A DNA stretch of 64,000 bases from an uncultured Actinomycetes bacterium (lineage in GTDB: Bacteria; Actinomycetota; UBA4738; HRBIN12), in the NCBI GenBank assembly GCA_964535065.1, contig CAZHRY010000001.1, positions 43,159 through 107,158 on the forward strand, given 5' to 3'. Below the pieces are notes generated by a model. That model had not been told where the DNA came from, did not search any database, and saw nothing but the letters and a program-made list of their open reading frames with translations. Of the stretch, positions 4,387 to 54,421 are shown one piece after another. Positions within the stretch are counted from its first letter, which is position 1. Each line of letters opens with the position of its first letter. The position numbers were made by a program, and so were the translations under genes.

Positions 4387-5838
4387 TCAGGTGCTCACGG
4401 GGATGCCCTGCTCGGCTTGAAGCTCATCAAGCAGTTCGGCGAGGCCCGCAGCGACCTTGTTCCTCCACCACGCCTGACCCTCCTCGGGCAGCGTGTAGAT
4501 GGGGTCGTAGTAGTGGTAGCGGCGCTCGAGCGCCATCGGGTCGTCGGCCTCGATGCTCGTCCGGTAGTTCTTGCGCCAGTAGCTGATCCCGCGAACGCGG
4601 TCGTAGTCGGTGATCATGTGGATCCAACGCTTGCCCACGAAGGGCACGTCGCAGACGAAACGCGGAGTGGCGAACCCTGGCAGGTAGCCCAGGATCGAGT
4701 ACTGGAGCTCCTGAGCCTCGGCGACGGACAACCGCCAATGCTCGGCGTTGGGGATCATGTCGCACATGTAGAAGTAGTAGGGAAGGATCTTGCCGTGGTC
4801 GAGCAGCGTGAAGCACAGCTCCAATAGCTGCGTAGGCGTCGTGTTGACGCCCCGGAGCAGGACGCCCTGGTTGCGAACGTCGCGGAAGCCCATGTCGAGC
4901 AGGGCTCTCACGGCCTTGCCCACAAGAGGCGTCACCTGCTGCGCGGAGTTGACGTGGGTGTGGACCGCCACATCTATGTCGCGATCACGAGCACGCTTGG
5001 CTATCTCGTCGTAGGCCTGGAGCACCTCGTCCTGCAGGAAGTGCTGCGGGATGCCCATCAGGCCCTTGGTGGCGATCCGGATGTCGCGGACGTTCTCGAT
5101 GTCCATCAGCTTGAAGAGCCACTCCTGGAGCCTCTTCGCCGGCACGTTCGCCATGTCACCACCGCTCACGACCACGTCGCGGACCTGCGGCGTGCGCCTC
5201 AAGTAGTCGAGCATCGCGTCCCAGCGATCGCTCTGCTTCATCTCGAACTTGTACTTGAGGACCTGGTTCGTGTCGTTGCCGACCAGGTCCATTCGGGTGC
5301 AATGGCCGCAGTACTGCGGACACGTGGGGATCATCTCGGCCAGGACCTTGGTCGGATACCTGTGGGTCAGTCCTTCGACGGCCCACATGTCGGCTTCGTG
5401 CAACGAGTCGCGAGAGGCCATCGGATGGCTCGGCCACTCGGGCTCGCGTTCGCTGAACGCAGGAGCCATGTACCGGCGGACGGGGTCGGCCCTCAGGTCG
5501 GCCTCGTTCATGGTGTTGATCATCTGAGGGGGGATGAGCATCGACATGGTCGCGCGCTCTTGCTGGTCGCGCTCTATGTCTCGGTAGAGCTCGTCGGTGA
5601 GTGAGTCCCCCAGCGCTTCTTTGAACTCCTTGAGGTTCTTGACCGTGTGCGAACGCTGCCACTGCGCCGACTCCCACTGCTCTCGGGTGACGTCCCGGTA
5701 CCCAGGCAGCCGGGTCCAGTCAGGCTCGACGAACTCCCGCTTCAAGGGATACGAAAAGGGCTGCTGGGCAGCGGCCGTGTGAGCCTCTCGGTGGCTCGGC
5801 CTCACGTTCACCGGTTGCGCCTGGAAGTCGATGCTCAT
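4387..5838 (-). CDS. kamA: KamA-family radical SAM aminomutase (lysine 2,3-aminomutase-like, long form)
   Basis: Has the CPQYCGHCTRM (CxxxCxxC) radical-SAM cluster motif in a GLTHRYP...VLAEM context, plus SGGD and the PYYFYMCD and VCDVP motifs aligned with the lysine-binding Asp positions of KamA. 483 aa. Confidence 0.85.
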   Translation of the reverse strand: MSIDFQAQPVNVRPSHREAHTAAAQQPFSYPLKREFVEPDWTRLPGYRDVTREQWESAQWQRSHTVKNLKEFKEALGDSLTDELYRDIERDQQERATMSMLIPPQMINTMNEADLRADPVRRYMAPAFSEREPEWPSHPMASRDSLHEADMWAVEGLTHRYPTKVLAEMIPTCPQYCGHCTRMDLVGNDTNQVLKYKFEMKQSDRWDAMLDYLRRTPQVRDVVVSGGDMANVPAKRLQEWLFKLMDIENVRDIRIATKGLMGIPQHFLQDEVLQAYDEIAKRARDRDIDVAVHTHVNSAQQVTPLVGKAVRALLDMGFRDVRNQGVLLRGVNTTPTQLLELCFTLLDHGKILPYYFYMCDMIPNAEHWRLSVAEAQELQYSILGYLPGFATPRFVCDVPFVGKRWIHMITDYDRVRGISYWRKNYRTSIEADDPMALERRYHYYDPIYTLPEEGQAWWRNKVAAGLAELLDELQAEQGIPVST

Positions 5839-5975: not shown

Positions 5976-6266
5976 TCAGCGGCGCGGGCCGTCGCCGCGA
6001 CCGGGCCCGCCCTCTCGCCGCGGCCGCCGTTGGTCGCGGATCTCGGGTCCCTGCTTGGGGAGCCTTGCCCGCATCGGAGCGTGGCCGGTGCGCTCGAACT
6101 TGACCTGGACGAACTCGGCCGTCTCGCGGCGCTCGAGCTCGCGCCATCCGTTGGCCAGCAAGTGTTTCAGTCTGGCGGCGGCGGTCTTCCTCAGCTTGTC
6201 CGTTCCCGGCACCTTGACGTACAGGCGCTCGTGGAGGATCTCCTTGTACTCGGCCATGGCGACCAA
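5976..6266 (-). CDS. hypothetical small protein upstream of kamA
   Basis: N-terminal 70 aa (MAEYKEILHERLYVKVPGTDKLRKTAAARLKHLL...) are rich in K, E and Y, which is atypical for GC-driven shadow ORFs. It sits 137 bp upstream of kamA on the same strand. The Arg/Pro-rich C-terminal tail may be read-through. Confidence 0.4.
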   Translation of the reverse strand: MVAMAEYKEILHERLYVKVPGTDKLRKTAAARLKHLLANGWRELERRETAEFVQVKFERTGHAPMRARLPKQGPEIRDQRRPRREGGPGRGDGPRR

Positions 6267-6286: not shown

Positions 6287-8611
6287 GTGCGAGAGGTATA
6301 CCTTCAGAGGCCCATTAGGCCTGCCGATGCTGCAGACGTGATGGTCGCTTCCGAGAACCGGGGGGAGGCCGTCCCGAGGGCAGTGCGCGATGCGTTAGCG
6401 CGCCTAGCGGACGGCGACTGGCTAGCCGAGCTGGGCTCGGCGCTGGCCGCCGTTGGGTCGAGCGTGGGCGTCGATCGCGTCTACGTGTTCCAGAACATGC
6501 GCGGACCGGACGGTCGGCTCTGGATGGATCTGTGTGGGGAATGGGACGCGCCGGGGATCCGTGGCATCTTCGATGACCCGAAGAACCACCTTCATCCGTA
6601 CCACCCCGGCTTCACCAGTTGGATAGAGACGCTGGGTTCGGGCGGGCACATCCGCGCGCCGTCGGTCGCGGACCTTCCGGAGCCGGTCAGGCGGGTCCTT
6701 TCGTCCGAAGGCACGCGGTCGATACTCGTCCTTCCGGTCACGGTGGCCGGCGAGTGGTGGGGTTACGTGGGGTTCGATTCGTGCAGCGGCCGCGACTGGT
6801 CGGAGGACGACCTTGCGGCGGTACGCGCCCTGGCGTACTCGGTAACCGGGGCGGTTACCAGGGTTCGTGCGGAGGAAGACCGCCGCCTGCAGGCCGACCT
6901 GTTCCAGACGGTGGTCGAGCAAGGTCCAGCGGTGTCCTACATCGATGGTGTGGACGACGAAGCCTCGAGCGTCTTCATGAGCCCGCAGATCGCGTCCATC
7001 GTGGGGTACACGGCTGAGGAGTTCATGGCGGACGAGGAGTTGTGGCCGAGGTTGCTTCACCCTGATGACAAGGCGCGGGCGCTCGCCGAGAACCAACGTC
7101 ACAACGAGACCGGTGAACCCTTCCGGCTCGAGTACCGGATGTTCGCGAAGGACGGTCGTGTGGTGTGGGTACACGACGAAGCGATCATGGTGCGGGACGA
7201 GAGGGGTATGCCTCGCTACTCGGTCGGCATCATGGTCGATATCTCCGATCGCAAGGATGCGGAGGAACAGGTCGCCTTCCAGGCGTATCACGACGAGCTG
7301 ACAGGGCTCCCGTCGCGGGCGATGTTCGAGGAGCTGCTCGACCTCTCCGTCGCCAGGGCCAAGAGGCACGAGGGTGCTGTGGCGGTGCTCTGTGTGGATC
7401 TGGACGACTTCAAGCTCGTCAACGACTCGCTCGGACACAGGACGGGGGACGGCGTGCTTCAGCTCGTGGCCGATCGCCTCCGCGAGGCAACGCGTGAAAC
7501 CGACCTCGTCGCGCGCCGGGGCGGTGACCAGTTCCTCCTGCTGCTTGCGGACCTGGATCGCGAGGAGGGCGAGATCGATGCGGCGTTGGTCCGGGCCCAA
7601 TCGGTCGCCCAGCGGATCCTTGCGTCTCTGGCGCAGCCCTTCGTGCTGCACGGGACCGAGCTGTACGTGTCGGCGAGCATCGGCATCAGCTTGCTCCCCC
7701 ATGACGCTTCCGATGCCGGCACGCTGCAGAGGAATGCCGAAGCCGCGATGTACGAGGCGAAGAAGGGCGGATCGGCCGGCTTCGTCGTGGCGTCCGACGG
7801 GGGCGTGGATTCCGCCGCCAAGCTCGAGTTCGTCACGCGCCTCAGGAAGGCCGTGGAGCTGCAGAGGTGGACCCTTCACTACCAGCCGGTCCTTGAACTC
7901 GGCACGGGGAAGATGATCGGGGTCGAGGCCCTGATCCGCTGGATCGAGCCTGATGGCACGATGGTCCCGCCGCTCGAGTTCATCCCGCTGGCGGAGGAGC
8001 TGGGCTTGATCGAACGGATCGGCGATTGGGTGGTCCGTGAGATCGCCTACCAGATGCAGGCGTGGCGCGAGCTGGGGATCGACCTCGAGATCGGCTTCAA
8101 CCTGTCCCCGCGGCAGTTCTGGCAGCCAGATCTGGCCCAGCGGATCGTGGGCGAGATCACGGCGGCTGGGTCGGACCCTTCACGGATCATGGTGGAGGTC
8201 ACGGAGTCCTCGGCGATGATGGATCCGGACCGTGCGCAGCAGGTCCTGATGGAGCTGAAGGACGCCGGGTTCTCCCTGGCCATCGACGACTTCGGGACCG
8301 GTTACTCGTCGCTCTCTCGCCTTCGTGAGATGCCGGTGAACGTGCTCAAGATCGATCGGTCCTTCGTGAGCAGGGTGCACGAGGATCGGCAGTCGGCCGC
8401 GATAGTCGGGGCGTTCCTCGAGCTGGCCGGAGGACTGGACATGGTCACGCTGGCCGAAGGGATCGAGACCGAGGACGAGCTGGCCTTCTTGCGCGAGCGG
8501 GGCTGCTCCCTGGGTCAGGGCTTCCATTTCTCGAAGCCTGTGCCGCCCGAGGAGATCATCGTCTACGCGCTCGGTGGGATCCCGGCCGCGGCCGGACTCC
8601 GGTCCGCCTGA
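6287..8611 (+). CDS. GAF-PAS-GGDEF(degenerate)-EAL c-di-GMP signalling protein (likely phosphodiesterase)
   Basis: Contains a GAF-like N-terminus, a PAS segment, a GGDEF domain whose signature reads RRGGDQF (degenerate), and an EAL domain with EALIRW, DDFGTGYSS and KIDRSF motifs. The true start may be the internal M at about 6341. Confidence 0.85.
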   Translation: MREVYLQRPIRPADAADVMVASENRGEAVPRAVRDALARLADGDWLAELGSALAAVGSSVGVDRVYVFQNMRGPDGRLWMDLCGEWDAPGIRGIFDDPKNHLHPYHPGFTSWIETLGSGGHIRAPSVADLPEPVRRVLSSEGTRSILVLPVTVAGEWWGYVGFDSCSGRDWSEDDLAAVRALAYSVTGAVTRVRAEEDRRLQADLFQTVVEQGPAVSYIDGVDDEASSVFMSPQIASIVGYTAEEFMADEELWPRLLHPDDKARALAENQRHNETGEPFRLEYRMFAKDGRVVWVHDEAIMVRDERGMPRYSVGIMVDISDRKDAEEQVAFQAYHDELTGLPSRAMFEELLDLSVARAKRHEGAVAVLCVDLDDFKLVNDSLGHRTGDGVLQLVADRLREATRETDLVARRGGDQFLLLLADLDREEGEIDAALVRAQSVAQRILASLAQPFVLHGTELYVSASIGISLLPHDASDAGTLQRNAEAAMYEAKKGGSAGFVVASDGGVDSAAKLEFVTRLRKAVELQRWTLHYQPVLELGTGKMIGVEALIRWIEPDGTMVPPLEFIPLAEELGLIERIGDWVVREIAYQMQAWRELGIDLEIGFNLSPRQFWQPDLAQRIVGEITAAGSDPSRIMVEVTESSAMMDPDRAQQVLMELKDAGFSLAIDDFGTGYSSLSRLREMPVNVLKIDRSFVSRVHEDRQSAAIVGAFLELAGGLDMVTLAEGIETEDELAFLRERGCSLGQGFHFSKPVPPEEIIVYALGGIPAAAGLRSA

Positions 8612-8614
8612 GGG

Positions 8615-10540
8615 TCAGTCGGCTTCGAGAGCTTGCCGGGCAGCGGCCGCGATCCCGGCGGCGTCGATGCCTGCCCATGCGCGCAGCTCCTCGGGCGTGC
8701 CGCTCCCCGGCATCTGCGTGATGCCGAGCTTGACCACCCGCCCTTGGAAGCGACCCGCAGCAGCGAGCGCGTCCAGGACGGCGTCTCCCAGCCCGCCCTC
8801 TACTCGATGGTCCTCGGCCACGACCATGACGCCGGTCTCTTCCAGGGCCCGGCGAAGGGCTCGGGCGTCGATCGGCTTGACGCTGTAGCAGTCGAGCACT
8901 CGCGCGGCGATGCCCTCCGCGCCTAGGATGTCGTGGGCAGCTAGGCACTGGTGGACGGTCACCCCGGCGCCGACGAGCGTCACCCGGTCGTGCTCGGTGC
9001 CCGCGAGGGTCCGAGATCCACCGATCGGGAAGGTCTCGTCCGGCCCGTAGAGCGGCGGCGTGGCTTCCCGGGTCGTGCGGATGTAGGAGACGCCTCGCAT
9101 GTCGCACATGGCGGTCACGAGCTTCACAGTGCTGTTCCCGTCGGCCGGGTACAGCACGGTTGAGCCGTCCAGAGCTCGGAAAGCGGCCAGGTCCTCGAGC
9201 GCCATCTGGGAAGGGCCGTCCTCCCCGATGGACACCCCGGCGTGCGAACCACACAGGCGGAGGTTGGCGCGGCTGATCGCCCCCATCCGGACCTGGTCGT
9301 AGGCACGCGTGAGGAAGGCGCCGAACGAAGCTGCGAACGCAGTCTTCCCAAGGGCCTGAAGGCCGGTCTGGACGCCCACCATGCATTGCTCGGCTATGTA
9401 GAGCTGCACGAAGCGCTCAGGCGCGACGGCTTCGGCATCTTCGGTGTAGGTGGAGTTGCCGACCTCGCCGTCCAGAACCACGAGGTCGTCTCGATGGCCC
9501 ACCAGCCAAGCCAGGGTCTCGCCGAAGGCCTTGCGGGTAGCCACCGGCTTCTCGTAGGCCGGCGCCGGTGCCGCCCCCGACCTCTGCACCGTGGCAGGCT
9601 TGAACACGGGCGGCGCCGGCGCCGCGATGCGGAGGTCTCGGGGCCCGCCCAGCTCGGCGATCGCCTCGGCCTCCCGCTCCGCTTCGAGCTCATAGATCGT
9701 GTCCGGCAGCCACTCCTCCAGGGCTTGCTTCACCTGGGCGATCGCCTCGGCCTCCCGTTCCCTTGGCACCGGTTTGCCGTGCCAGCCCTCGGCATCGGCC
9801 AGGAAGGACACCCCGTGCCCCTTCTGCGTTCTCGCGATGATCATGGTCGGGCGTTCGTCCTCGACTGCCCGCCCGTATGCCTCGTGGATCGCCGCGGCGT
9901 CGTGACCGTCGATCTCGAGCGCGGACCAGCCGTAGGCGTGCGCTCTGTCGCGGAAGACGTCCGCCGTCCACCCGTGCATCGTGGGACCGCGCTGCCCGAG
10001 TCGATTGAGATCGACGATCGCGGTGAGGTTCGAAGCGTCGTGGAAGGCGGCAGCTTCGGCTGCCTCCCACACCGAGCCCTCCGCGCATTCGGAGTCGCCG
10101 AGGAGCACCCAAACCCGCCCATCGGACCCGTCCATCCGCATAGCGAGAGCCATCCCCAGTCCGACCGCCAAGCCCTGCCCCAGGGAGCCCGAGGCGACAT
10201 CGACCCAGGGAAGCTCGGGAACGGGTGCGGGGTGTCCCTGAAGCGGGGACCCCATCTTGCGCAGCGACATCAGTATGTCGTCGTCGAACGCCCCGACCGC
10301 CTTCAACACCGCGTACAGCGCAGGCGCCGCGTGTCCCTTCGACATCACGAAGCGGTCATTGGCAGCGTAGGCGGGATCCTTCACGTCGTAACGCAGGTGA
10401 TCGGCGAACAGGACGGCTACTAGGTGGGCGCAGGACATGCAAGATGTCGGATGACCGGACCCCGCCGCCGTGGTCGCCCTGATGCTGTCCACCGCGATCT
10501 GCGCTGCAAGGTCGTCCCAGAGTTGCCTTCGGTCCTCCAC
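8615..10540 (-). CDS. tkt: transketolase (single-chain form that looks like a fusion of the N- and C-terminal split subunits)
   Basis: ThDP-binding N-terminus SGHPTSCMSCAHLVAVLF...GSLGQGL and a C-terminal pyrimidine-binding/TKC half. 641 aa. Central linker carries a duplicated EREAEAIA peptide. GTG start with a GGGGAG ribosome-binding site. Confidence 0.9.
   Translation of the reverse strand: MEDRRQLWDDLAAQIAVDSIRATTAAGSGHPTSCMSCAHLVAVLFADHLRYDVKDPAYAANDRFVMSKGHAAPALYAVLKAVGAFDDDILMSLRKMGSPLQGHPAPVPELPWVDVASGSLGQGLAVGLGMALAMRMDGSDGRVWVLLGDSECAEGSVWEAAEAAAFHDASNLTAIVDLNRLGQRGPTMHGWTADVFRDRAHAYGWSALEIDGHDAAAIHEAYGRAVEDERPTMIIARTQKGHGVSFLADAEGWHGKPVPREREAEAIAQVKQALEEWLPDTIYELEAEREAEAIAELGGPRDLRIAAPAPPVFKPATVQRSGAAPAPAYEKPVATRKAFGETLAWLVGHRDDLVVLDGEVGNSTYTEDAEAVAPERFVQLYIAEQCMVGVQTGLQALGKTAFAASFGAFLTRAYDQVRMGAISRANLRLCGSHAGVSIGEDGPSQMALEDLAAFRALDGSTVLYPADGNSTVKLVTAMCDMRGVSYIRTTREATPPLYGPDETFPIGGSRTLAGTEHDRVTLVGAGVTVHQCLAAHDILGAEGIAARVLDCYSVKPIDARALRRALEETGVMVVAEDHRVEGGLGDAVLDALAAAGRFQGRVVKLGITQMPGSGTPEELRAWAGIDAAGIAAAARQALEAD
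9657..9757. repeat. 20-bp exact direct repeat (gcgatcgcctcggcctcccg) x2, 81 bp apart, inside the tkt linker
   Basis: Copies at 9657-9676 and 9738-9757. The repeat is in frame (27 codons apart) and encodes the repeated EREAEAIA peptide on the minus strand. Confidence 0.7.
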
Positions 10541-10662
10541 GTCCTCTCCCCTGCTCGTGACCGGGCAAAGGGTACAGGCCGAGGAAGGGCGACCGCGGGG
10601 TCACATATGCCGCTACCCGCGGGGATGCGCCAGGCGGTACCCTCGGCGGCTGCAGGGCCGCC

Positions 10663-11631
10663 ATGGAACGACCGTCCAGAACGCCGCACGCCGCAGCGAC
10701 CGCCGGCAACCGACCGGTCCTTCTCGCCCTGGCCGGCGACAGCGCCTCGGGCAAGAGCACGCTGTCGCGCGGGATCGAGTTCATCCTGGGCGTGGAGCGT
10801 GTCGGACGCGTGTGCACGGACGATTACCACCGGTACGACCGGGTGGAGCGAGCTCACCTGGGCATCACGCCGCTGGCTCCCGAGGCGAACAGGATGGATC
10901 TGATGGCAAGGCATCTGCGCGAGCTGGCGGATGGCAAGAAGGTGACGAAGCCGACCTACGATCACCACACGGGCACGTTCGGCACGGAGGAACAGGTGGA
11001 GCCGAGCGAGATCCTCATCGTCGAAGGGCTCCTTCCGCTCGCCGATCGCGCCGTGCGGGATCAGATCGACGTCGCCGTCTTCCTGGACCCCGAGGAGGAG
11101 CTGCGTCACCGTTGGAAGCTCGAGCGCGATGTCTTCGAGAGGGGGTACTCGCCGAAGGCGGTCGTGGCCGAACTGACGAAGCGGGAGCACGACGCCGCCA
11201 CGTACGTGCGTCCCCAACGCGACTACGCGGACGTCGTCGTGCGTTTCCACAGACGCGAGGGCGCCGGGGACCGGGAGCATCTATCGGCTGAGCTGGCCGT
11301 TCGGCCGACGCTTCCTTATCCGGCCCTGCGCGAGTTGGCGGGTTCCTTCCGGCACCGGGGCGTGGAGCCGGTCAGGTGGTCCACGCGGACCGACCGCCGC
11401 GGTCCGATGAGCGTCTTGGAGATCGACGGCAACTGCCCGCCCGAGGTCGGCGCCGAGCTGGAGCAGGCCCTCTGGGCTTCGCTGCGCCAGGGCGAGCGAC
11501 TGCAGAGGGATCGGATCGGGATGGTCCGCAGGCCGGGTAAGGAGCCCGAGCGAAGCGAGTCGCTCGCCCTGGCGCAGCTGCTGATAGTTGCCCACCTGGT
11601 GGGGGCTTTCGACGCGTCGGTCGAGCTCTGA
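10663..11631 (+). CDS. prk: phosphoribulokinase-like protein (PRK/uridine kinase family, plant/cyanobacterial type)
   Basis: P-loop LALAGDSASGKST, then CTDDYHRYDR, KPTYDHHTGTF, ILIVEGLLP and RHRWKLERDVFERGYS. These are collinear with class II PRK motifs (GCGKST / DDYHSLDR / KPIYNHVTG / KFAWKIQRD). Divergent from tkt. Confidence 0.65.
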   Translation: MERPSRTPHAAATAGNRPVLLALAGDSASGKSTLSRGIEFILGVERVGRVCTDDYHRYDRVERAHLGITPLAPEANRMDLMARHLRELADGKKVTKPTYDHHTGTFGTEEQVEPSEILIVEGLLPLADRAVRDQIDVAVFLDPEEELRHRWKLERDVFERGYSPKAVVAELTKREHDAATYVRPQRDYADVVVRFHRREGAGDREHLSAELAVRPTLPYPALRELAGSFRHRGVEPVRWSTRTDRRGPMSVLEIDGNCPPEVGAELEQALWASLRQGERLQRDRIGMVRRPGKEPERSESLALAQLLIVAHLVGAFDASVEL

Positions 11632-11655: not shown

Positions 11656-12852
11656 GTGAGCGGCCCTGAGAGCTTCTTGGATCTCGGGGTCTCCCAGCCG
11701 GTCGCCCGGGTGCTCGCCGAAAGGGGCATAACCAAGCCCTTCCCCATCCAGGCGATGGTCCTGCAGGACGCGACCTCCGGACGCGACACCCTGGCCAAGT
11801 CCAAGACCGGTTCGGGCAAGACCCTGGGGTTCGCGTTGCCCATCGTGGAGCGGTTGGACGCGGGCTCCGAACCGTTGCCGGCCGCTCTCGTGCTCGTCCC
11901 CACCAGAGAGCTTGCCCAGCAGGTCAGGCAGGAGTTCGCCGATATCGCCCGGGTCAAGGGGCTCGGCGTTCGGGCCGTCTACGGCGGCACGGGCGTGAGG
12001 GAACAGGCCAAGGGGCTCGGAGGCGCCCACGTGCTCATAGCCACCCCCGGCCGCCTGGACGACCTACGCCAGCGGGGGCTCGTGAACCTGGGCGGCGTTC
12101 GGATACTCGTGCTCGACGAAGCCGACCGGATGCTGGACATGGGATTCCAGCCCCAGGTTGATCGGATCGTGCGCCACCTGCCGTCGGATAGGCAGACCAT
12201 GTTCTTCTCGGCCACGTTGGACGGAGCGGTCGGTCGCATCGCCGAGGTCTACACGAAGAACCCAGTGCTCCACGAGGTCGGTGGCGATGAGCGCGCGGTG
12301 GTGGAGGAGGCCGACCACCGCTTCGTGCCGGTGCCGGCGCACGGCAAGCTGGACAAGCTCATCGAGCTGGCGGATGCCGCAGAAGGCTTGACGCTGGTCT
12401 TCGTGAACACGAAACGCATGGTGGACACACTCGCTCGCCAGTTGAAGGCTCAGGGGGTGAGCGCACTGGCGCTGCACGGGGACATGCGCCAAGAGGCCCG
12501 CGACCGGGCGCTCAAGCGTTTCGCCCAGGGGCACGTCGGCGTTCTGGTAGCCACCGACGTGGCCGCTCGGGGCCTCGACCTCGACGACATCACGCTGGTC
12601 GTCAACTACGAGCCCCCACAGGACGACAAGGGATACGTCCACCGTGCCGGGAGGACGGCGCGCGCGGGCAAGGGCGGAACCAGCGTCACGTTCGTCACGC
12701 CTCAGCAGCAGGGCGACGTGAGCCGCATGGCCGCTCGATTGGACCTGCACGAGGAGTTCCAGCAGGAGGGCATGAAGGTGGCCCCGCCTCGAGTCGTCTT
12801 CAGCGGCGGCCCACGGGGCCGTAGCCGCCTGGGCAAGCCGAAGCGGCGATGA
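11656..12852 (+). CDS. DEAD-box ATP-dependent RNA helicase
   Basis: Q-motif FPIQA; motif I SKTGSGKT; VLDEADRMLDMGF (DEAD box); SAT; HRAGRTARAG. Confidence 0.9.
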   Translation: MSGPESFLDLGVSQPVARVLAERGITKPFPIQAMVLQDATSGRDTLAKSKTGSGKTLGFALPIVERLDAGSEPLPAALVLVPTRELAQQVRQEFADIARVKGLGVRAVYGGTGVREQAKGLGGAHVLIATPGRLDDLRQRGLVNLGGVRILVLDEADRMLDMGFQPQVDRIVRHLPSDRQTMFFSATLDGAVGRIAEVYTKNPVLHEVGGDERAVVEEADHRFVPVPAHGKLDKLIELADAAEGLTLVFVNTKRMVDTLARQLKAQGVSALALHGDMRQEARDRALKRFAQGHVGVLVATDVAARGLDLDDITLVVNYEPPQDDKGYVHRAGRTARAGKGGTSVTFVTPQQQGDVSRMAARLDLHEEFQQEGMKVAPPRVVFSGGPRGRSRLGKPKRR

Positions 12853-15042
12853 TCAGCTGGCGAGTTCGCCCTGGATGAGGGTGAGACCAGAGCGGCGGTA
12901 CATGGCCAGGATCTCCTCCGGAGGCACGGGCTTCGAGAAGTAGTAGCCCTGACCGTATGCGCATCCACGGTCGGCGAGGAACCTCCACTCATCCACCGTC
13001 TCGATCCCTTCGGCGAGCGGTTGCATGCCGAGGTTGGATGCGAGCGCGATGATCGCCGAGACCATGCTGGCGCTCTGCGGGTCGGTGTGAACCTCGCGGA
13101 CGAAGGTACGGTCGATCTTGAGCACGTCAACCGGCATGTAGCGGAGCCGCGAGAGCGACGAGTAGCCGGTACCGAAATCGTCGATCGCCAGTCGCAGGCC
13201 CTCGTCGTGGAACCGATGGAGGATCGCCAGGGTGCGGTCGGGGTCGTTCATGGCCGTCGACTCCGTCACCTCTACGGTGATCCTCGAGGGGTCTGCTCCG
13301 GCCTCCGCGATCTGAGCACAGATCTTGGCCACCGGGTCGCTTTGCCAGAGCTGCCTGGGCGACAGGTTGAAGCTGATCTCAAGCTCCAGACCCTCGGCTC
13401 GCCACAGGGCGTCCTGCCGGCAGATCTCTTCGACGACCCATTCGCCGATGGCATCGATCAAGCCCATCTCCTCGGCCAGGGGTATGAAGTCGCCCGGAGG
13501 CATGAGACCGCCCGTGGGGTCGGGCCAGCGGATCAGAGCCTCCACGCCGACCATCTCGCAGCTCGCCAGGTCCAGCAGTGGCTGGTAGTGCAGGGCCCAG
13601 ACCTTGTTGTCCACCGCCTTGCGCAGGCGGGTGGAGAGGGACAGCTTGGTGAGCGCGTTCACGTTCTCGGCCTCATGCACGACGGAGACGCCTGGCCCCG
13701 CCTCCTTCGCCCGGAACATGGCCGCATCGGCGTTCCGCAGCAGGGTTCCGCCGTCCTCCGCGTCGTTCGGGAAGATGCTGATGCCGATCGAGACCGTCAC
13801 GTACAGCTCTGTCTCGCCGATCGTGAATGGCGTCTCCAGCGCCTCCTTGATGCGGCTCGCCACGGACCGAGCGGTAACGACCTCGTCCTCGGCACCGTCG
13901 CGCTCGAGGTCGGCCAGCAGCAGCAAGAACTCGTCTCCGCCCTGCCTCGCGACGAGGTCGGTATCACGCGTCGCCTGTCGGAGCCTGTCGGCGAGGCGGG
14001 CGATCAGCTCGTTCCCTGCCTCGTGTCCGAGCGAGTCGTTGATCAGCTTGAAGTTGTCCACGTCGAGCACCAGGACGGCGACCCCCAGATCGTGCCGCCG
14101 CGCGCGCGCCAGGGCCAGCTCCAAGCTCTCGTCGAACATCGCCTTGTTCGGAAGGCCCGTGAGGCTGTCGTGGTAGACGAGGAAGGCCAGACGCTCCTCG
14201 GCCTCCTTGCTTGCCGTAACGTCGAGCATGACACCGTGCTTCAGCCCGGGCTTGCCCTCTTCCCCGGGGATGATGACCATGTTGTCGCGGAACCAGACGA
14301 CCCTTCCGTCCCTCGCGATGAGGCGGTACTCCTGGGTGTACTGCTCGTACTCGAAGCCCTCCTGCAACTCCGCCAACGCCCGTTCGCGGTCGTCTGGATG
14401 CAGCATCCGGACCCAGAGCTCGGGGTCTGCGATGTACTCCTCAGGCGTGACGCCGAGGATGCTCTCGATCTGCGGACTGACATACGTCGTCACGAGTGAG
14501 TCGTCTGCGATGTCCGTATAGACGATGGCCGGTATCTGCTCGACGAGGGTGCCGTACTTGGCCTTCGCCTCCTGGAGTGAGCCGCGAGCCTCCATCAACT
14601 CGGTGATGTCGAGCATGATCCCCAGCCAATAAAGGGGGTTGCCTTCATCGTCGTTGATCAGGACGGAGTCCTCGCGGATCCAGACGATGCGGCCGTCGGC
14701 ATGGCGGGCGCGATACTCGACTCGGAAGGGCTCTCCGGTCTCGACGCAGTGATCACTCGTGGCCAGCACGCGCGCAGCGTCGTCGGGGTGGATGAAGCGC
14801 TCCCATGCCATGTAACTGTCGAGCCACTCGTCGGGATCGATGCCCAAGAGGTCCGCGATGCCGGGGCTGACATCGACCATGTTCTGCCCCGTAGCGATGC
14901 CGTCGATGTAGAGAACGGCGGGCAGGTGGTCGATGAGGCCGCGGTAGCGAGCTTCGAGGTCCTTCAGTTGAACCGCGGGGTCGTTCGACTTGAGGTCGGC
15001 GAAGAAGCCGTTGACGATCGGCTCGTCGGGGGTCTCGGGCAA
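12853..15042 (-). CDS. PAS-PAS-GGDEF-EAL bifunctional c-di-GMP cyclase/phosphodiesterase
   Basis: Intact RQGGDEF signature, EALIRW EAL motif, DDFGTGYSS and KIDRTF. N-terminal PAS repeats. Its stop abuts the helicase stop (TGATCA). Confidence 0.85.
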   Translation of the reverse strand: MPETPDEPIVNGFFADLKSNDPAVQLKDLEARYRGLIDHLPAVLYIDGIATGQNMVDVSPGIADLLGIDPDEWLDSYMAWERFIHPDDAARVLATSDHCVETGEPFRVEYRARHADGRIVWIREDSVLINDDEGNPLYWLGIMLDITELMEARGSLQEAKAKYGTLVEQIPAIVYTDIADDSLVTTYVSPQIESILGVTPEEYIADPELWVRMLHPDDRERALAELQEGFEYEQYTQEYRLIARDGRVVWFRDNMVIIPGEEGKPGLKHGVMLDVTASKEAEERLAFLVYHDSLTGLPNKAMFDESLELALARARRHDLGVAVLVLDVDNFKLINDSLGHEAGNELIARLADRLRQATRDTDLVARQGGDEFLLLLADLERDGAEDEVVTARSVASRIKEALETPFTIGETELYVTVSIGISIFPNDAEDGGTLLRNADAAMFRAKEAGPGVSVVHEAENVNALTKLSLSTRLRKAVDNKVWALHYQPLLDLASCEMVGVEALIRWPDPTGGLMPPGDFIPLAEEMGLIDAIGEWVVEEICRQDALWRAEGLELEISFNLSPRQLWQSDPVAKICAQIAEAGADPSRITVEVTESTAMNDPDRTLAILHRFHDEGLRLAIDDFGTGYSSLSRLRYMPVDVLKIDRTFVREVHTDPQSASMVSAIIALASNLGMQPLAEGIETVDEWRFLADRGCAYGQGYYFSKPVPPEEILAMYRRSGLTLIQGELAS

Positions 15043-36864: not shown

Positions 36865-38970
36865 GTGGTGGCAGTCTGGAACCTGACGCCGCTGCTGGCG
36901 CCGAGGTCCATCGCGATCGTGGGGGCCTCGGAATCGCCCGATTCATGGGCACCTGAGATCGAGCGGTCGTTGAGGCACGTCGGCTACCCCGGTGAGCTGT
37001 ACCCGATCAATCCGAAGTACGACACCGTTTGGGGCCGACCCTGCCTGAAGAGCATCGAGGAGCTGCCGGCCGGCGTGGACCTGGTCGTGTTCGTGGTCCC
37101 CGCTCGCGTTGTCGTGCGGATGATCGACGCCTGCGGAGCTCGCAAGGTCCGGGGGATCATGGTTGTCTCGTCGGGGTTCGCCGAGGCGGGGGAAGAGGGG
37201 CGGGCCCTCCAGGAGGAGCTCCGCGCGGCGGCGCTGCGGAACCGGATCCCGGTGCTCGGGCCCAACGTCGAGGGGTTCGTGAACTACGTGGATCGGGTCG
37301 CTCCCTACGGAACCACGCCGCCACCCGAACCGCTCCCGGGCCGGATCAGCGTCATCTCCCAATCGGGAACGGTGGCCTGGACGATGAACCAGCTGGCCTC
37401 GGATCGAGGCGAGGGGCTCAGGATCATCCTCGGCGTCGGCAACGAAGCCGTGGTGGGACTCGGCGACATGTTCGAGTGGGCCGCGGCCGATCCCCATACC
37501 AAGGTCGTGACCAGCTACATCGAGACGATGAGGGATGTGGAGGGGATCGGCCGCGGCCTCGACGCGCTCAGGGCCGCGCGCAAGCCCGTGCTGATATGCG
37601 CCCCTGCCGGCCGCAGCGAGGCGGCCCTGCGTTCGATAATCGCCCACACCGGCGCGCTGGCCGGCAACACGGGACTACGCGACGCGTGGCTTCGGGGCAG
37701 AGGCGTGGTCCTCGTTGAAGATCCCGTCACGATGTTCGAAGCGGCGGTTCTGCTGTCGCGGGTCAAGAAGCTGCGAGCTCCCGGGGTCGCGGCGGCGCTC
37801 CAGTCCGGGGGGGCCTGCACGCTCTTCGCAGAAGCCGCCGGCGCCCAGGGGCTGCCCCTTCCAGAGTTCGCCGCGGGAACGAAGGCGAGGCTGAAGGAGG
37901 CGCTGCCGCATTTCGCGTCGCAGAACAACCCGCTGGACGTCACGGGGCAGGCGGCGGTCGAGACGGATATGTACGTCGGCGCACTCGAAGCGCTGGCCGA
38001 GGACCCGAGCGTCGGTTTCGTCGCCTTCGATGCGTTCCCTCCACGGTTGGAGGGCGAGACGCCGTGGGCACGTCCGGTGCTGGACGCCGTGAAGCGCCTC
38101 GGGAAGAGCACAGGCGTGGTCTTCGCCAGCGTCTCGATGAGCCCGCTCGGCTATATCCCCGAGGCCAAGTCCTTCGTGAAGGAAGAGAGGCTGCCGTTCC
38201 TGCAAGGCCACCATGCCGCGACGGGAGCGATCCGGGCCTTGATCGACTTCCAGTCGTCCGGAGTCAGGGCCGTGCCCGATCTGCCTCCGCACGAGAACAG
38301 GGCTGCCGCGTTGAGACTGATCCGCGGCTTGTCCGGTCCCCTCGACGAAGCTCAGGGCGCGAAGCTGCTCGAGCTGTACGGGGTACGCAGGCCTGCAGAG
38401 GCCGTTGCGGCAACCCCGGAGCAGGCAGCGGACGCCGCGCGGAAGATCGGCGGACCCGTGGCCGTCAAGGCGCTTGCCCCGGAGATCCCGCACAAGGCTC
38501 GCCTCGGCGGCGTTCGCCTGAATCTGCGCGGAACCGGTGAGGTCGAGCAGGCCGCGGCCGAGGTGCTGGAGGCGGCCCGCCGCGCGGGGGCGAAGGACCC
38601 GAAGGTGCTGGTTCAGCAGATGGCCAGCGGCCACGAGGTCCTGGTTGGGGCCATCGTCGACAGGCAGTTCGGAGCGTGTATCACGATCCGCCCCGGCGGC
38701 GCTCTGGCCGAAGCCGGCGATGCGACCTTCGTTGCCTGCCCGCTGACACCCAAGCAAGCCCTGGCGTACGTGGGGTCGCAGGCCGCGCGGGCGGGGTTGG
38801 ACGGCTCGCGCCACGACCTCAAGGCCGTGGCGCGAGCCGTCGAAGCGATCGCCCGCGCGGCCCACGACCTGCGCGACAGGATCACGTCGCTGGAGGCCAA
38901 CCCGCTGCTCGTCGGCGCTCGGGGCGCCGTGGCCGTGGACGCCCTCGCCGAAGCCGGGCCACCCGCGTGA
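36865..38970 (+). CDS. acyl-CoA synthetase (NDP-forming; fused alpha/beta, ADP-forming acetate--CoA ligase family)
   Basis: N-terminal CoA-binding domain (SIAIVGASES...LYPINPKY), a succinyl-CoA-synthetase-like ligase-CoA domain, and a C-terminal ATP-grasp. 701 aa. Paralogue of the gene at 57014. Confidence 0.8.
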   Translation: MVAVWNLTPLLAPRSIAIVGASESPDSWAPEIERSLRHVGYPGELYPINPKYDTVWGRPCLKSIEELPAGVDLVVFVVPARVVVRMIDACGARKVRGIMVVSSGFAEAGEEGRALQEELRAAALRNRIPVLGPNVEGFVNYVDRVAPYGTTPPPEPLPGRISVISQSGTVAWTMNQLASDRGEGLRIILGVGNEAVVGLGDMFEWAAADPHTKVVTSYIETMRDVEGIGRGLDALRAARKPVLICAPAGRSEAALRSIIAHTGALAGNTGLRDAWLRGRGVVLVEDPVTMFEAAVLLSRVKKLRAPGVAAALQSGGACTLFAEAAGAQGLPLPEFAAGTKARLKEALPHFASQNNPLDVTGQAAVETDMYVGALEALAEDPSVGFVAFDAFPPRLEGETPWARPVLDAVKRLGKSTGVVFASVSMSPLGYIPEAKSFVKEERLPFLQGHHAATGAIRALIDFQSSGVRAVPDLPPHENRAAALRLIRGLSGPLDEAQGAKLLELYGVRRPAEAVAATPEQAADAARKIGGPVAVKALAPEIPHKARLGGVRLNLRGTGEVEQAAAEVLEAARRAGAKDPKVLVQQMASGHEVLVGAIVDRQFGACITIRPGGALAEAGDATFVACPLTPKQALAYVGSQAARAGLDGSRHDLKAVARAVEAIARAAHDLRDRITSLEANPLLVGARGAVAVDALAEAGPPA

Positions 38971-52113: not shown

Positions 52114-52551
52114 ATGGATAAGGGCGAACTGCTTCGGCGTGAAGAAGAGGCATGGGCCAGGTTGCAGGCTGCGATCGCGCAGGTGCCGGAGGGTCGCAGG
52201 ACCGAGCCCGGGGTCGTGCCTGGATGGTCGGTCCAGGATCTGGTGTGGCACTGCGGCAAGTGGGCCGACTACGTGGCCGGGGAGCTCGAGGCCATAGCGT
52301 CCGGCGGCCCTCAGGACGGTGACCACGACGACGCCTACTGGGACGGGCTGAACGAGGCGATCGCGCAGGAAGCCAGGACCATGACCTGGGCGGACGTGAT
52401 GGCGGGCGCAACCGGGATGCGGGAACGGGCGCGGGGAGCGCTTGAAGCCATGGCCGAGATACCCGAAGAGGCTGCGCAGGAGTTCTCCGACGAGACCTTC
52501 GCGCATTACGAGGAGCATGCAGCCGAGATAGCCAGCTTCGCGGGTAGCTAG
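52114..52551 (+). CDS. hypothetical four-helix-bundle protein (DinB/ClbS-DfsB-like)
   Basis: WSVQDLVWHCGKWADYVAGELEAI resembles the DinB_2/ClbS family. AAGGAGG ribosome-binding site 9 nt upstream of the ATG. Convergent CTAG overlap with rbsK. Confidence 0.45.
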   Translation: MDKGELLRREEEAWARLQAAIAQVPEGRRTEPGVVPGWSVQDLVWHCGKWADYVAGELEAIASGGPQDGDHDDAYWDGLNEAIAQEARTMTWADVMAGATGMRERARGALEAMAEIPEEAAQEFSDETFAHYEEHAAEIASFAGS

Positions 52552-53432
52552 GGAGCTTCCCCTGTGTGAGGGGCGCCGCGCGCGCCGGCGACCGTGACCG
52601 ACAGGGTCGCCGCTTCGACGGCGCGCGCGGCGCCCCCCTCCAGGTCCATCCCCTCCCAGAGCGCAGCTGCGAGCGCGCCGTTCAGGCAGTCTCCCGCTCC
52701 CGTCGTGTCCACCACCTCGACTTCCGGAGCGGCGATCGGGGTCGCTTCGCCCCCATGAACGAGGAGCGCTCCTTTGGGGCCGAGGGTTACCAGGATCGCC
52801 AGCCCTTGGATCCGCGACGCGAGCGCCAGCGCCGCCTCCTCGGCGTTCTGGTGCCCGGGGGACAACTCGGTGAGCTCGTCCCTGTTCGGCGTAGCGACGA
52901 GGGCCCCGTCGAGCAGGTTCCGCAGCCGGGGCGAAGAGGGGGCCGGGTTCACGATGAAGCCGACGCCGTTCTCGCGGCACCAGCGCGTGGCGGATGAGAG
53001 GGCGGCGTAGGGGACCTCGCAGCTCATGAGGACGAGCGACGGTGCGAGAACGGCCAGCGGCTCGGCGGGGTCGAAGGTCCAGTTGTTGGCCCCCGGTGCG
53101 ACGGCGATCTGGTTCTCGCCCTTGGCGTCGACAGCTATCAGCGCCACTCCGGTGGGCTCGGCCTGGACCTGCACCGAGGACACGTCGATACCCTCGGTTC
53201 GAAGCGCCTCAACTGCCTCCTTCCCGAGGGCGTCGTCGCCCACCGCGCCGATCATCGCGACGTGCGCCCCGGCACGCGCCGCCGCGACAGCCTGATTCCC
53301 ACCTTTGCCGCCGTGATGGGTGGCGAACGAGCCTCCGACCACCGTCTGCCCCGGCCTGGGCAAGGCGGCCCCGGAGATCACCAGGTCTTCGTTTATCGCG
53401 CCGAGGACGGCCAGGGGACCGTGACGGCTCAT
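52548..53432 (-). CDS. rbsK: ribokinase
   Basis: GGKGGNQAVAAARAG, DTTGAGDCLNGALAAAL and an anion-hole region. 294 aa from MSRHGPLAVLGAINEDL. The ATG overlaps the nucleoside hydrolase stop (ATGA). The ORF-track 550-aa version is a frame run-on. Confidence 0.85.
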   Translation of the reverse strand: MSRHGPLAVLGAINEDLVISGAALPRPGQTVVGGSFATHHGGKGGNQAVAAARAGAHVAMIGAVGDDALGKEAVEALRTEGIDVSSVQVQAEPTGVALIAVDAKGENQIAVAPGANNWTFDPAEPLAVLAPSLVLMSCEVPYAALSSATRWCRENGVGFIVNPAPSSPRLRNLLDGALVATPNRDELTELSPGHQNAEEAALALASRIQGLAILVTLGPKGALLVHGGEATPIAAPEVEVVDTTGAGDCLNGALAAALWEGMDLEGGAARAVEAATLSVTVAGARGAPHTGEAP

Positions 53433-54421
53433 GCTCGGGCCTCGACCAGACCGCGAAGCCTCTCGACCATCAGCGTCACCACTGCGGGTGCATCGACCGA
53501 GGTAGCCACGCATGCGTTGTCTTGTTCCGTCCAGTCGGACCAAGGGCTCGTGCGGATCCCGAGCAGGTCGGTCACGGTCTCCCCGCGAGTGAAGCGGCCG
53601 TCCAGCTCGACCTCGACGCGCGTCATGGCCCAGGTGCAGAGCGCAGGGTTCAACGCCGCCGCGAGCGCGAGCGGGTCGTGCATGCACGCGCCCTCGTACC
53701 GGCCGGTCGACGCGTAGAAGTCGGCGTAGGAGCTGACCGATCCTTGGATCAGCCGAGCCAGCTCGGAGCCGGGAGCCGGAGCGCAGATGGCGTCGACGTC
53801 CTTCTGCGAGAGCCACACCTGCTCCGTCACGTCCAGCCCGAGGCAGCGAGGCAGCTTCGACGGCCCTGCCCCGGACCAGGATGCGAACACGCGCGATGCG
53901 GCATCCGCGTCCATCCATACGTTCGCCTCGGCGCGAGGAGTGACGTTGCCCCCTTCGCGGAAGGCACCGCCCATCAGCGTGTAGCCGCCGAGCAGCTCCG
54001 GCAGCAGCGGTTCCCGTTCGACGGCCGTGGCGACGTTCGTGAGCGGGCCCGTGGAAACGAGGAAGACCTCGCCGGGCCGGCGGCGCGCCTCCTCCACGAT
54101 CAACGTCGCCGCATCGCGGGCCGACGGCGTGCCGGCCGGCTCCCCGGGCGTGAACGCTCCCAGTCCCTCCGCCCCGTGGACGATCTCGAAGGCCTTCCAA
54201 TCCTGGACCAGCGGCCGCTCGGCCCCGCGTGCTACTTCGACCCGTTTCAGGCCGGCCAGCTCCAGCACGAGGAGGGAGTTCCTGACCACCTTGTCCAAGT
54301 GGACGTTGCCGGTCACGCAGGTGACACCCACGAGTTCGACCTCCGGAGAGGCGGCGGCGAGGAGCAACGCCACCAGGTCGTCCACCCCCGTGTCGACGTC
54401 CATGATGACCGGCATGGGCAT
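53429..54421 (-). CDS. nucleoside hydrolase (inosine-uridine-preferring IUNH family)
   Basis: VIMDVDTGVDDLVALLLA (DxDxxxDD Ca-binding motif). 330 aa. Confidence 0.85.
   Translation of the reverse strand: MPMPVIMDVDTGVDDLVALLLAAASPEVELVGVTCVTGNVHLDKVVRNSLLVLELAGLKRVEVARGAERPLVQDWKAFEIVHGAEGLGAFTPGEPAGTPSARDAATLIVEEARRRPGEVFLVSTGPLTNVATAVEREPLLPELLGGYTLMGGAFREGGNVTPRAEANVWMDADAASRVFASWSGAGPSKLPRCLGLDVTEQVWLSQKDVDAICAPAPGSELARLIQGSVSSYADFYASTGRYEGACMHDPLALAAALNPALCTWAMTRVEVELDGRFTRGETVTDLLGIRTSPWSDWTEQDNACVATSVDAPAVVTLMVERLRGLVEARA

What the first reader, a model, noticed from the sequence alone, without database searches (positions are those of the whole stretch)
8615..11631. Plant/cyanobacterial-type phosphoribulokinase homologue divergent from transketolase, with no RuBisCO in view
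The 10663-11631 product carries the PRK-family P-loop and, in my reading, is collinear with class II (oxygenic-phototroph type) PRK over the DDYH, KPxYxHxTG, ILIVEGL and WKLERD blocks, rather than with uridine kinase. It lacks the regulatory Cys in the P-loop (SASGKST instead of GCGKST). It is divergently transcribed from a transketolase, a Calvin-cycle partner. No RuBisCO, CP12 or GAPDH is present in the 64 kb. The window also encodes nucleoside hydrolase plus ribokinase (52548-54421), which could feed ribose 5-phosphate towards a PRK-dependent pentose-bisphosphate-type route. A PRK in a heterotroph-looking actinobacterial context is unusual and worth placing phylogenetically.
Basis: partly seen in the sequence, partly recalled or inferred. 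Interest (0 to 1): 0.6.

Follow-up and report, generated by a model that had tools for sequence, protein, structure and literature searches.

The report
Phosphoribulokinase paired with transketolase, RuBisCO unseen
The gene is a real, intact phosphoribulokinase (the Calvin-cycle enzyme that makes RuBisCO's substrate) kept next to a transketolase throughout an uncultured soil actinobacterial lineage; databases already annotate it this way, its relatives sit in ordinary Calvin-cycle operons, and whether this genome has RuBisCO elsewhere could not be checked, so it is a fairly ordinary find.

Summary
Window 10663-11631(+) encodes a 322-aa PRK-family kinase. It is transcribed divergently from a 641-aa transketolase at 8615-10540(-). 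No RuBisCO, GAPDH or CP12 lies in the 64 kb.

The protein passes NCBI's phosphoribulokinase model (320.6 bits, cutoff 236) and fails the uridine kinase, pantothenate kinase and class I PRK models. Every residue that is invariant in the reference PRKs is also invariant in 120 clade members. The AlphaFold model (pLDDT 90.7) superposes best on the 2026 "cyanobacteria specific PRK" structures 9qkn/9qko/9qkp (TM 0.86-0.90).

It is not the canonical redox-regulated plant/cyanobacterial PRK: the P-loop Cys is Ser, there is no C-terminal Cys pair, and only the N-terminal half aligns by sequence.

Relatives at about 40% identity sit in true cbb clusters (RbcL-RbcS-PRK-Tkt-FBA-GlpX-RPE; RPE-PRK-GAPDH beside RbcLS-CbbX), in a photosynthesis gene cluster, or are fused to RbcS or transaldolase. 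The tkt-PRK adjacency survives rearrangement in two sister lineages.

Most likely reading: an active ribulose-5-phosphate kinase forming a RuBP-regeneration module with transketolase. Published genome surveys find Prk without Rubisco in most Prk-positive genomes. Verdict: new member of a known kind, low-to-moderate interest.

The parts
10663..11631 (+). Phosphoribulokinase (322 aa) of the non-redox-regulated, 9qko-like bacterial subclass. It has an N-terminal P-loop kinase domain (about residues 16-197) and a C-terminal PRK-type domain (about 198-320).
   Evidence: Pfam PF00485, E 3.8e-42. NCBIfam NF005655, 320.6 bits against cutoff 236. PDB 9qko E 1.3e-70 over the full length. AlphaFold pLDDT 90.7. 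Foldseek TM 0.86-0.90 to 9qkp/9qkn. All residues invariant in the reference PRKs are conserved.
8615..10540 (-). Transketolase (641 aa) of the short, mammalian-type form, transcribed divergently from PRK.
   Evidence: NCBIfam NF004559, 839.9 bits against cutoff 488. Best PDB match is human TKT 4kxu/3mos, E 1e-155, versus 1e-37 to 1e-54 for bacterial TktA-type enzymes. Adjacent to PRK in all complete related loci and in both sister lineages.
10541..10662 (.). 122-bp divergent intergenic region. It carries two conserved TAnnnT (-10-like) boxes: TACCCT at 10638-10643 on the + strand (towards PRK) and TACCCT at 10569-10574 on the - strand (towards tkt). A purine-rich ribosome-binding site (AGGGGAG on the - strand, about 10544-10552) lies before the tkt GTG.
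   Evidence: Alignment of the spacers from 43 loci shows only these two short blocks conserved. Sequence read directly. A sigma-70 consensus scan found nothing. Promoter function is inferred, not shown.
11656..12852 (+). DEAD-box RNA helicase, 24 bp downstream of PRK on the same strand. It is a conserved neighbour and probably co-transcribed. No metabolic link to PRK is known.
   Evidence: Pfam DEAD plus Helicase_C. Best NCBIfam model is CshA, below its cutoff. Syntenic in 47 loci and in L054 and L062.
9656..9736 (-). 81-bp in-frame insertion (27 aa) in the transketolase linker, flanked by a direct repeat of about 19 bp. It is specific to this strain.
   Evidence: Absent from the otherwise near-identical copies L049-L053.

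Best explanation
The ORF encodes an active phosphoribulokinase (ATP + ribulose 5-phosphate -> ribulose 1,5-bisphosphate). It belongs to a bacterial subclass that is dimer-type and class II-like but lacks the thioredoxin/CP12 redox switch.

It is maintained as a two-gene unit with a mammalian-type transketolase. The two genes are divergent promoter partners here and co-directional in a sister lineage. Together with housekeeping epimerase and isomerase, the pair supplies and phosphorylates Ru5P. It is therefore the RuBP-regeneration arm of a Calvin-type pathway whose carboxylase, RuBisCO, is encoded elsewhere in the genome.

Shown: family membership, intact active site, fold, purifying conservation, conserved tkt linkage, and Calvin-cluster context of relatives.

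Inferred: Ru5P kinase activity in this protein, and the presence of RuBisCO (or another RuBP sink) outside the window.
For: HMM membership is above the curated cutoff, at the same level as cbb-linked relatives: 320.6 bits here versus 350.5 for P0287, 338.1 for P0128 and 323.2 for P0168.

All 40-odd positions invariant across the reference PRKs are invariant in 120 clade members, with no specificity switches. These include the P-loop, D53-D54-Y55-H56, R60, R63, K96/Y99/H101, E121, K152/R155/D156/R160, R174 and D177.

The model is confident and full-length PRK-like.

Contexts of relatives:
- P0280 (40% identity): HAD-RbcL-RbcS-PRK-Tkt-FBA-GlpX-RPE.
- P0287 (42%, Actinomycetota): RPE-PRK-GAPDH beside LysR/RbcL/RbcS/CbbX.
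- P0203: inside a photosynthesis gene cluster.
- P0128 is an RbcS-PRK fusion and P0168 a transaldolase-PRK fusion.

The tkt-PRK adjacency persists despite inversion in the P0121 lineage (59% identity, co-directional, 88-bp gap) and in the P0154/P0275 lineage.

PRK is 64-78% identical across the complete loci of about 45 MAG species, similar to its neighbours, which indicates purifying selection.

Transketolase next to Prk is a recognised Calvin-operon pattern (PMC7895386).

From established knowledge (not tested here): PRK activity without an RuBP sink is growth-inhibitory in E. coli. This is the basis of PRK-based RuBisCO selection strains, and it argues that a maintained active PRK implies a sink.
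Against: No RuBisCO, CbbX, GAPDH, RPE, FBA or FBPase lies within the 64-kb window or within +/-10 kb of PRK in any of 53 related loci. In the cbb-positive relatives, RuBisCO lies within 5 kb of PRK.

The window's gene content looks heterotrophic: acyl-CoA dehydrogenases, ABC sugar uptake, aldehyde and alanine dehydrogenases, and no hydrogenase or CO dehydrogenase.

Genome-wide presence of RuBisCO could not be tested. Many genomes carry Prk homologues without Rubisco. No enzyme assay exists for this clade.
Confidence: 0.55

Rival explanations
1. Orphan PRK-transketolase module with a RuBisCO-independent role. The lineage has no RuBisCO. In this reading the kinase either makes RuBP for another sink or signal, or has drifted to phosphorylate another transketolase-linked ketose phosphate. 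One example would be sedoheptulose 7-phosphate to sedoheptulose 1,7-bisphosphate, giving a transaldolase-independent pentose-phosphate route.
For: There are no Calvin-specific genes near PRK in 53 loci from three related lineages. The only conserved metabolic partner is transketolase. About two thirds of Prk-positive genomes in a large survey lacked Rubisco. The surrounding genes look heterotrophic.
Against: No active-site substitution distinguishes the clade from cbb-operon PRKs, so there is no sequence sign of a new substrate. No candidate alternative sink lies in the conserved neighbourhood. Absence of RuBisCO from the genome is unproven.
Confidence: 0.25
2. Evolutionary leftover of a dismantled cbb cluster. 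RuBisCO was lost, and PRK and tkt persist with little or no PRK function.
For: An Acidimicrobiia cbb cluster (L060) has a GAF-HisKA_3/GerE two-component pair next to PRK. A 43-50% identical pair flanks the tkt-PRK-helicase block in the sister lineages L054 and L062, hinting at a shared ancestral neighbourhood. The P0154 lineage has lost the C-terminal domain (228 aa). Three long-read MAG copies (L045-L047) contain frameshifts.
Against: The gene is intact in about 45 species at 64-78% identity with every catalytic residue invariant, which is not the pattern of a decaying gene. The frameshifts fall in long-read MAGs. In L047 they affect tkt as well, at many sites, which is typical of consensus errors.
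Confidence: 0.1
3. It is a uridine/cytidine kinase mis-named as PRK.
For: It shares Pfam family PF00485 with uridine kinases. One of the closest PDB entries (9qkn) still carries the molecule name 'Uridine kinase'.
Against: The Udk equivalog models score 107.2 and 95.4 bits against cutoffs of 180 and 220.3. Udk structures cover only the N-terminal half (TM normalised to the query 0.51), whereas PRKs cover the full length. The PRK-specific DDYH and DR..R motifs are present. The 9qkn entry title itself calls the protein a PRK.
Confidence: 0.03
4. One reading: the PRK is part of a pentose-bisphosphate-type nucleoside salvage route fed by the nucleoside hydrolase and ribokinase at 52548-54421.
For: Both genes exist, and ribose 5-phosphate can reach Ru5P through the isomerase.
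Against: The pair is 41 kb from PRK and absent from the +/-10 kb neighbourhoods of PRK in the related loci. No ribose-1,5-bisphosphate isomerase, AMP phosphorylase or form III RuBisCO is in the window. The known archaeal pathway does not use PRK (established knowledge).
Confidence: 0.03

Closest known systems
'Cyanobacteria specific PRK' of Pleurocapsales/Gloeocapsa (PDB 9qkn, 9qko, 9qkp; released April 2026)
   Same: It is the best sequence match (E 1e-70, full length 16-313, 42% identity) and the best structural match (TM 0.86-0.90, rmsd 2.3-2.5 A). Both have the same two-domain architecture, a P-loop without Cys, and the shared C-terminal LALxQLLI helix.
   Different: In Stanieria it is a second, stand-alone PRK gene in an oxygenic phototroph that also has RuBisCO, and it is not next to transketolase. 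No paper describing its function could be found in the library. The subclass is not in fact confined to cyanobacteria: 9qko is 58% identical to a Rhodocaloribacter cbb-operon PRK.
Bacterial cbb-cluster PRKs of the same subclass (Rhodocaloribacter sp. WP_457654648-type, P0280; Ilumatobacteraceae/Actinomycetota MDQ3178876, P0287)
   Same: They are 40-42% identical over the full length, hit the same NCBIfam model, have identical catalytic residues, and in P0280 are adjacent to transketolase.
   Different: Those genes lie within 1-5 kb of RbcL/RbcS and other Calvin genes. The window's gene has only transketolase, and that transketolase is the short mammalian type rather than the 690-aa bacterial type.
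Canonical redox-regulated class II PRK (T. elongatus 6gve, S. elongatus 6kev, Arabidopsis 6h7h/6kex)
   Same: They share the N-terminal catalytic domain motifs and about 40% identity over 180 residues. The overall fold matches at TM about 0.7.
   Different: The window's protein has no P-loop Cys (Ser29), no C-terminal Cys pair (its only cysteines are Cys51 and Cys258), and no CP12 in the window. The C-terminal half is not alignable by sequence.
Archaeal PRK (Methanospirillum hungatei 5b3f)
   Same: Both are non-redox-regulated dimer-type PRKs. The fold matches at TM 0.72-0.76.
   Different: The archaeal-type group forms a separate clade with 100% bootstrap, and its members match 5b3f over the full length. 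The query matches 5b3f only over its N-terminal domain by sequence.
Class I (proteobacterial, CbbP/PrkB) PRK and uridine kinase
   Same: All belong to the same P-loop kinase superfamily, PF00485.
   Different: NF011997 scores 36 bits against a cutoff of 362, and the Udk models are below their cutoffs. Udk lacks the C-terminal domain.

Membership tests
Phosphoribulokinase, class II-like subfamily (NCBIfam NF005655 / PRK07429) | Profile score above the curated cutoff over the full length | tested here: met
   320.6 bits against cutoff 236, covering residues 15-317 of the protein and positions 5-315 of the 326-position profile. Canonical, archaeal-type and cbb-operon PRKs all hit the same model.
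Phosphoribulokinase, class II-like subfamily (NCBIfam NF005655 / PRK07429) | Walker A P-loop plus the PRK catalytic and Ru5P-binding residues (DDYH, R60/R63, K96-P-x-Y99-x-H101, E121, K152/R155/D156/R160, R174) | tested here: met
   All are present in the query and 99-100% conserved in 120 clade members. They are identical to the T. elongatus, cbb-operon and 9qko sequences. Residue roles are taken from PMC6800369 and from established mutagenesis of R. sphaeroides PRK (own knowledge).
Phosphoribulokinase, class II-like subfamily (NCBIfam NF005655 / PRK07429) | Two-domain PRK fold, with the C-terminal extension of the sheet that is absent from Udk | tested here: met
   The pLDDT 90.7 model gives TM 0.86-0.90 to 9qkp/9qkn and 0.67-0.74 to 5b3f, 6kev and 6kex over more than 300 columns. 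Udk covers only about 190 columns.
Phosphoribulokinase, class II-like subfamily (NCBIfam NF005655 / PRK07429) | ATP-dependent phosphorylation of ribulose 5-phosphate | not testable with these tools
   This needs a recombinant enzyme assay.
Calvin-Benson-Bassham gene set | Co-occurrence with RuBisCO in the same genome | not testable with these tools
   RuBisCO is absent from the 64-kb window and from +/-10 kb around PRK in 53 related loci.
Canonical redox-regulated plant/cyanobacterial PRK | Regulatory Cys pair (P-loop Cys with Cys41/55) and C-terminal Cys pair; CP12 partner | tested here: not met
   The P-loop position is Ser29 in 100% of the clade, while Cys51 is kept. The protein has only two cysteines, at 51 and 258. 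No AWD.VEEL CP12 motif occurs in any frame of the window.
Uridine/cytidine kinase (Udk) | Score above the Udk equivalog cutoffs | tested here: not met
   NF004018 scores 107.2 bits against 180. TIGR00235 scores 95.4 against 220.3.
Class I PRK (CbbP/PrkB, NF011997) | Score above the equivalog cutoff | tested here: not met
   36 bits against a cutoff of 362.
Archaeal pentose bisphosphate pathway | Ribose-1,5-bisphosphate isomerase, AMP phosphorylase and form III RuBisCO encoded together | tested here: not met
   None is found in the window by Pfam survey or tblastn.
Transketolase (NF004559, short/mammalian type) | Score above the equivalog cutoff with all three TK domains | tested here: met
   839.9 bits against cutoff 488. 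The Transketolase_N, Transket_pyr and Transketolase_C domains are all present. Human TKT matches at E 1e-155.

The most novel reading that the evidence does not exclude
An entire uncultured soil/desert Actinomycetota lineage, together with its two sister lineages, keeps a catalytically intact PRK welded to a mammalian-type transketolase but has no RuBisCO at all. In that case RuBP, or another ketose bisphosphate made by this kinase, would serve a RuBisCO-independent function, such as a transaldolase-free pentose-phosphate shunt or a stress or dormancy metabolite.
Probability: 0.15. Interest if true: 0.65.

Novelty: new member of a known kind. Interest (0 to 1): 0.25.

Why it matters
If RuBisCO is present elsewhere, this is one more facultatively CO2-fixing soil actinobacterial lineage with a dispersed Calvin gene set. 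That would be useful for annotation but not surprising.

Two modest points go beyond routine. First, the PRK subclass that the 2026 PDB entries call 'cyanobacteria specific' is in fact spread across Actinomycetota, Rhodothermota and phototrophs, including genuine cbb operons. Second, a tight and rearrangement-resistant PRK-transketolase pair detached from all other Calvin genes is a clean test case for what Prk does in the many genomes that have Prk without Rubisco.

Tried and rejected
- Literature on the cyanobacterial PRK paralogue behind PDB 9qkn/9qko/9qkp: four full-text searches found nothing. The 'PRK2' hits were either a bare accession or meant the Prk dimer.
I considered using the last protein-database search with RbcL and matching contig lengths. 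I judged it too unlikely to list this lineage's RbcL among the best 120 hits.
- Deep phylogeny: NJ trees on the kinase domain and on full-length sequences resolve the query clade (100%) and its union with P0121 (83% and 100%). Placement among the other bacterial PRKs is unresolved, with supports of 3-65%. No maximum-likelihood software was available.
- Possible pseudogenes (L045-L047): rejected as probable long-read consensus errors.
- Shared operator in the tkt/PRK spacer: only two -10-like TAnnnT boxes are conserved. The sigma-70 scan found nothing.
- Context of the cyanobacterial paralogue: uninformative. It is a stand-alone gene next to chemotaxis-like genes.
- Two-component system next to PRK in L060, L054 and L062: only 43-50% identical, so shared ancestry of the neighbourhood is a hint and not a result.
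- Tandem-repeat search in tkt found nothing relevant. The insertion was found by direct comparison instead.
Full report
**Observation**

Window 10663-11631(+) is a 322-codon ORF and 8615-10540(-) a 641-codon ORF. Both have third-position GC of 0.83-0.85, typical of real genes in this 67% GC sequence. The exact 322-aa protein occurs on six public metagenome or MAG contigs and is labelled phosphoribulokinase by JGI.

The genes are divergent, separated by 122 bp. The long transketolase start is correct, because the protein aligns from its first residues with the sister-lineage transketolases.

**What the kinase is**

Pfam places it in PF00485. NCBIfam separates the sub-families:
- PRK model NF005655: 320.6 bits, cutoff 236, full length.
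- Uridine kinase models: 107 and 95 bits, cutoffs 180 and 220.
- Pantothenate kinase: 38 bits.
- Class I PRK NF011997: 36 bits, cutoff 362.

Against solved structures, the best sequence matches are the 'cyanobacteria specific PRK' entries 9qko/9qkp and 9qkn (E 1e-70 and 2e-69, residues 16-316). Canonical cyanobacterial and plant PRKs, and the archaeal PRK, match only over residues 16-197.

An AlphaFold model built on a 47-sequence alignment is confident (pLDDT 90.7, pTM 0.89). It superposes on 9qkp/9qkn at TM 0.86-0.90, on archaeal and canonical PRKs at about 0.7 over more than 300 columns, and on uridine kinases only over the N-terminal 190 residues. So it is a two-domain PRK, not a Udk.

**Active site**

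I aligned 120 clade members with reference PRKs: T. elongatus 6gve, a canonical cyanobacterial representative, 9qko/9qkn, two cbb-cluster PRKs, the RbcS and transaldolase fusions, and an archaeal-type protein. Every column invariant in the references is also invariant in the clade, and there is not a single clade-specific switch.

The regulatory P-loop Cys (T. elongatus Cys19; PMC6800369) is Ser29. Its partner is retained as Cys51. The only other cysteine is Cys258, so the C-terminal regulatory pair is absent too. No CP12 motif occurs in the window.

**Relatives and their contexts**

A scan of one genome per species found 47 loci in uncultured Actinomycetota/'Actinomycetes' MAGs (soil, desert, glacier forefield, hot spring) at 64-78% identity. 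The whole neighbourhood is syntenic in these loci: KamA-like radical-SAM protein, a 96-aa ORF, GGDEF-EAL protein, tkt(-), PRK(+), DEAD-box helicase(+), GGDEF-EAL protein(-).

An exhaustive search of 1.84 billion cluster representatives gave only 233 hits below 1e-30. Contexts of informative ones:
- P0280 (Rhodocaloribacter, 40% identical; 58% identical to 9qko) lies in HAD-RbcL-RbcS-PRK-Tkt-FBA-GlpX-RPE.
- P0287 (Actinomycetota/Ilumatobacteraceae, 42%) lies in RPE-PRK-GAPDH, next to a LysR regulator and RbcL-RbcS-CbbX.
- P0203 lies inside a photosynthesis gene cluster.
- P0128 is an RbcS-PRK fusion and P0168 a transaldolase-PRK fusion.

The subclass therefore contains bona fide Calvin-cycle kinases and is not confined to cyanobacteria.

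The two nearest outgroups of the query clade keep the same short transketolase beside PRK. In P0121 (59% identity) the order is tkt->PRK, co-directional with an 88-bp gap. In the P0154/P0275 lineage the genes are divergent, and the PRK is a 228-aa form lacking the C-terminal domain.

NJ bootstrap gives 100% for the query clade. It gives 83% (kinase domain) and 100% (full length) for its union with P0121, and 100% for a separate archaeal-type group. Deeper placement is unresolved.

**The partner gene**

The transketolase passes equivalog model NF004559 (839.9 bits, cutoff 488). It resembles human transketolase (E 1e-155) far more than the bacterial TktA-type enzymes.

Across 43 loci the spacer conserves only two TAnnnT boxes, one facing each gene. 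I read these as back-to-back -10 elements. That is an inference.

**What is absent**

tblastn with RbcL, RbcS, CbbX, RPE, GAPDH, FBA and GlpX taken from the two cbb loci finds nothing in the window or in any of the 53 loci of the query clade. A Pfam/NCBIfam survey of virtually all ORFs in the window shows acyl-CoA dehydrogenases, ABC sugar transporters, aldehyde and alanine dehydrogenases, an amidase, aminotransferases, a nucleoside hydrolase and a ribokinase-like kinase. It shows no autotrophy markers.

**Interpretation**

The most economical reading is an active Ru5P kinase kept with transketolase as the RuBP-regeneration arm of a Calvin-type pathway, with the carboxylase encoded elsewhere.

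Arguments for it:
- The catalytic machinery is intact and under purifying selection.
- Relatives sit in Calvin clusters.
- Prk-transketolase adjacency is known to be common in Calvin operons (PMC7895386).
- From established knowledge, PRK activity without an RuBP sink is harmful.

The main rival is a true orphan module with a RuBisCO-independent role. It is kept alive by the complete lack of Calvin genes near PRK in three related lineages. It is also supported by a survey in which 4,284 genomes had Prk but only 1,490 had Prk plus Rubisco. That same survey makes 'PRK without RuBisCO in view' unremarkable.

**Verdict**

The gene is a new member of a known kind. It is already annotated as phosphoribulokinase by NCBI and JGI, and it belongs to a non-redox-regulated bacterial PRK subclass whose first structures were released in 2026.

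Interest is low to moderate (0.25). The one open question worth a follow-up is whether this lineage has any RuBisCO at all.

Noticed in passing
window 9656-9736 (inside tkt, - strand): An 81-bp in-frame insertion adds 27 aa (EREAEAIAQVKQALEEWLPDTIYELEA) to the linker between the transketolase PP and Pyr domains. It is bounded by a direct repeat of about 19 bp (GGCGATCGCCTCGGCCTCC). It is absent from the otherwise near-identical population copies L049-L053.
   Followed up: partly
window 4387-5838 (-) and 5976-6266 (-): The 483-aa protein has no Pfam hit. It resembles KamA-family radical-SAM / lysine 2,3-aminomutase proteins but scores below the NCBIfam cutoffs (177.5 bits against 199.2). At 76-87% identity across MAG species it is the most conserved gene of the syntenic block. 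A 96-aa ORF with no family assignment follows it.
   Followed up: partly
window 6287-8611 (+) and 12853-15042 (-); L054, L062, L060: Two paralogous GAF/PAS-GGDEF-EAL proteins bracket the tkt-PRK-helicase trio. In the sister lineages a GAF-HisKA_3 kinase plus GerE-type regulator occupies that position. A 43-50% identical pair sits between cbbR-RbcLS-CbbX and RPE-PRK-GAPDH in an Acidimicrobiia cbb cluster. This may point to a shared, possibly redox- or hypoxia-type, regulatory neighbourhood.
   Followed up: partly
representatives P0226, P0233, P0235, P0245, P0246, P0257, P0261, P0265, P0267: A family of 650-830-aa proteins joins a large polytopic membrane domain to a PRK/Udk-like kinase domain carrying a GDDYHxWERG-type motif. 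These form their own clade in the kinase-domain tree. Their function is unknown.
   Followed up: no
P0128 and P0168: Two natural fusions were seen: a RuBisCO small-subunit domain joined to PRK (434 aa) and transaldolase joined to PRK (711 aa).
   Followed up: partly
PDB 9qkn/9qko/9qkp versus P0280 (L056): The structures titled 'cyanobacteria specific PRK' are 58% identical to a Rhodocaloribacter PRK encoded inside an RbcL-RbcS-PRK-Tkt operon. The subclass also occurs in Actinomycetota, so 'cyanobacteria specific' does not hold at the subclass level.
   Followed up: yes
L036 and L037 (MAG CAWHGC01): One MAG carries two copies of the tkt-PRK-helicase block on different contigs.
   Followed up: no
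L062 3215-3901 (P0275, P0154 cluster): In one sister lineage a 226-228-aa PRK lacking the entire C-terminal domain is still paired with the short transketolase. It just passes the NCBIfam PRK cutoff (249.1 bits against 236).
   Followed up: partly
window 36865-38970 (+) and about 57000-59113 (+): There are two ADP-forming acyl-CoA synthetase-like genes (CoA_binding_2 / Succ_CoA_lig / ATP-grasp_5), each near enoyl-CoA hydratase or acyl-CoA dehydrogenase genes.
   Followed up: no
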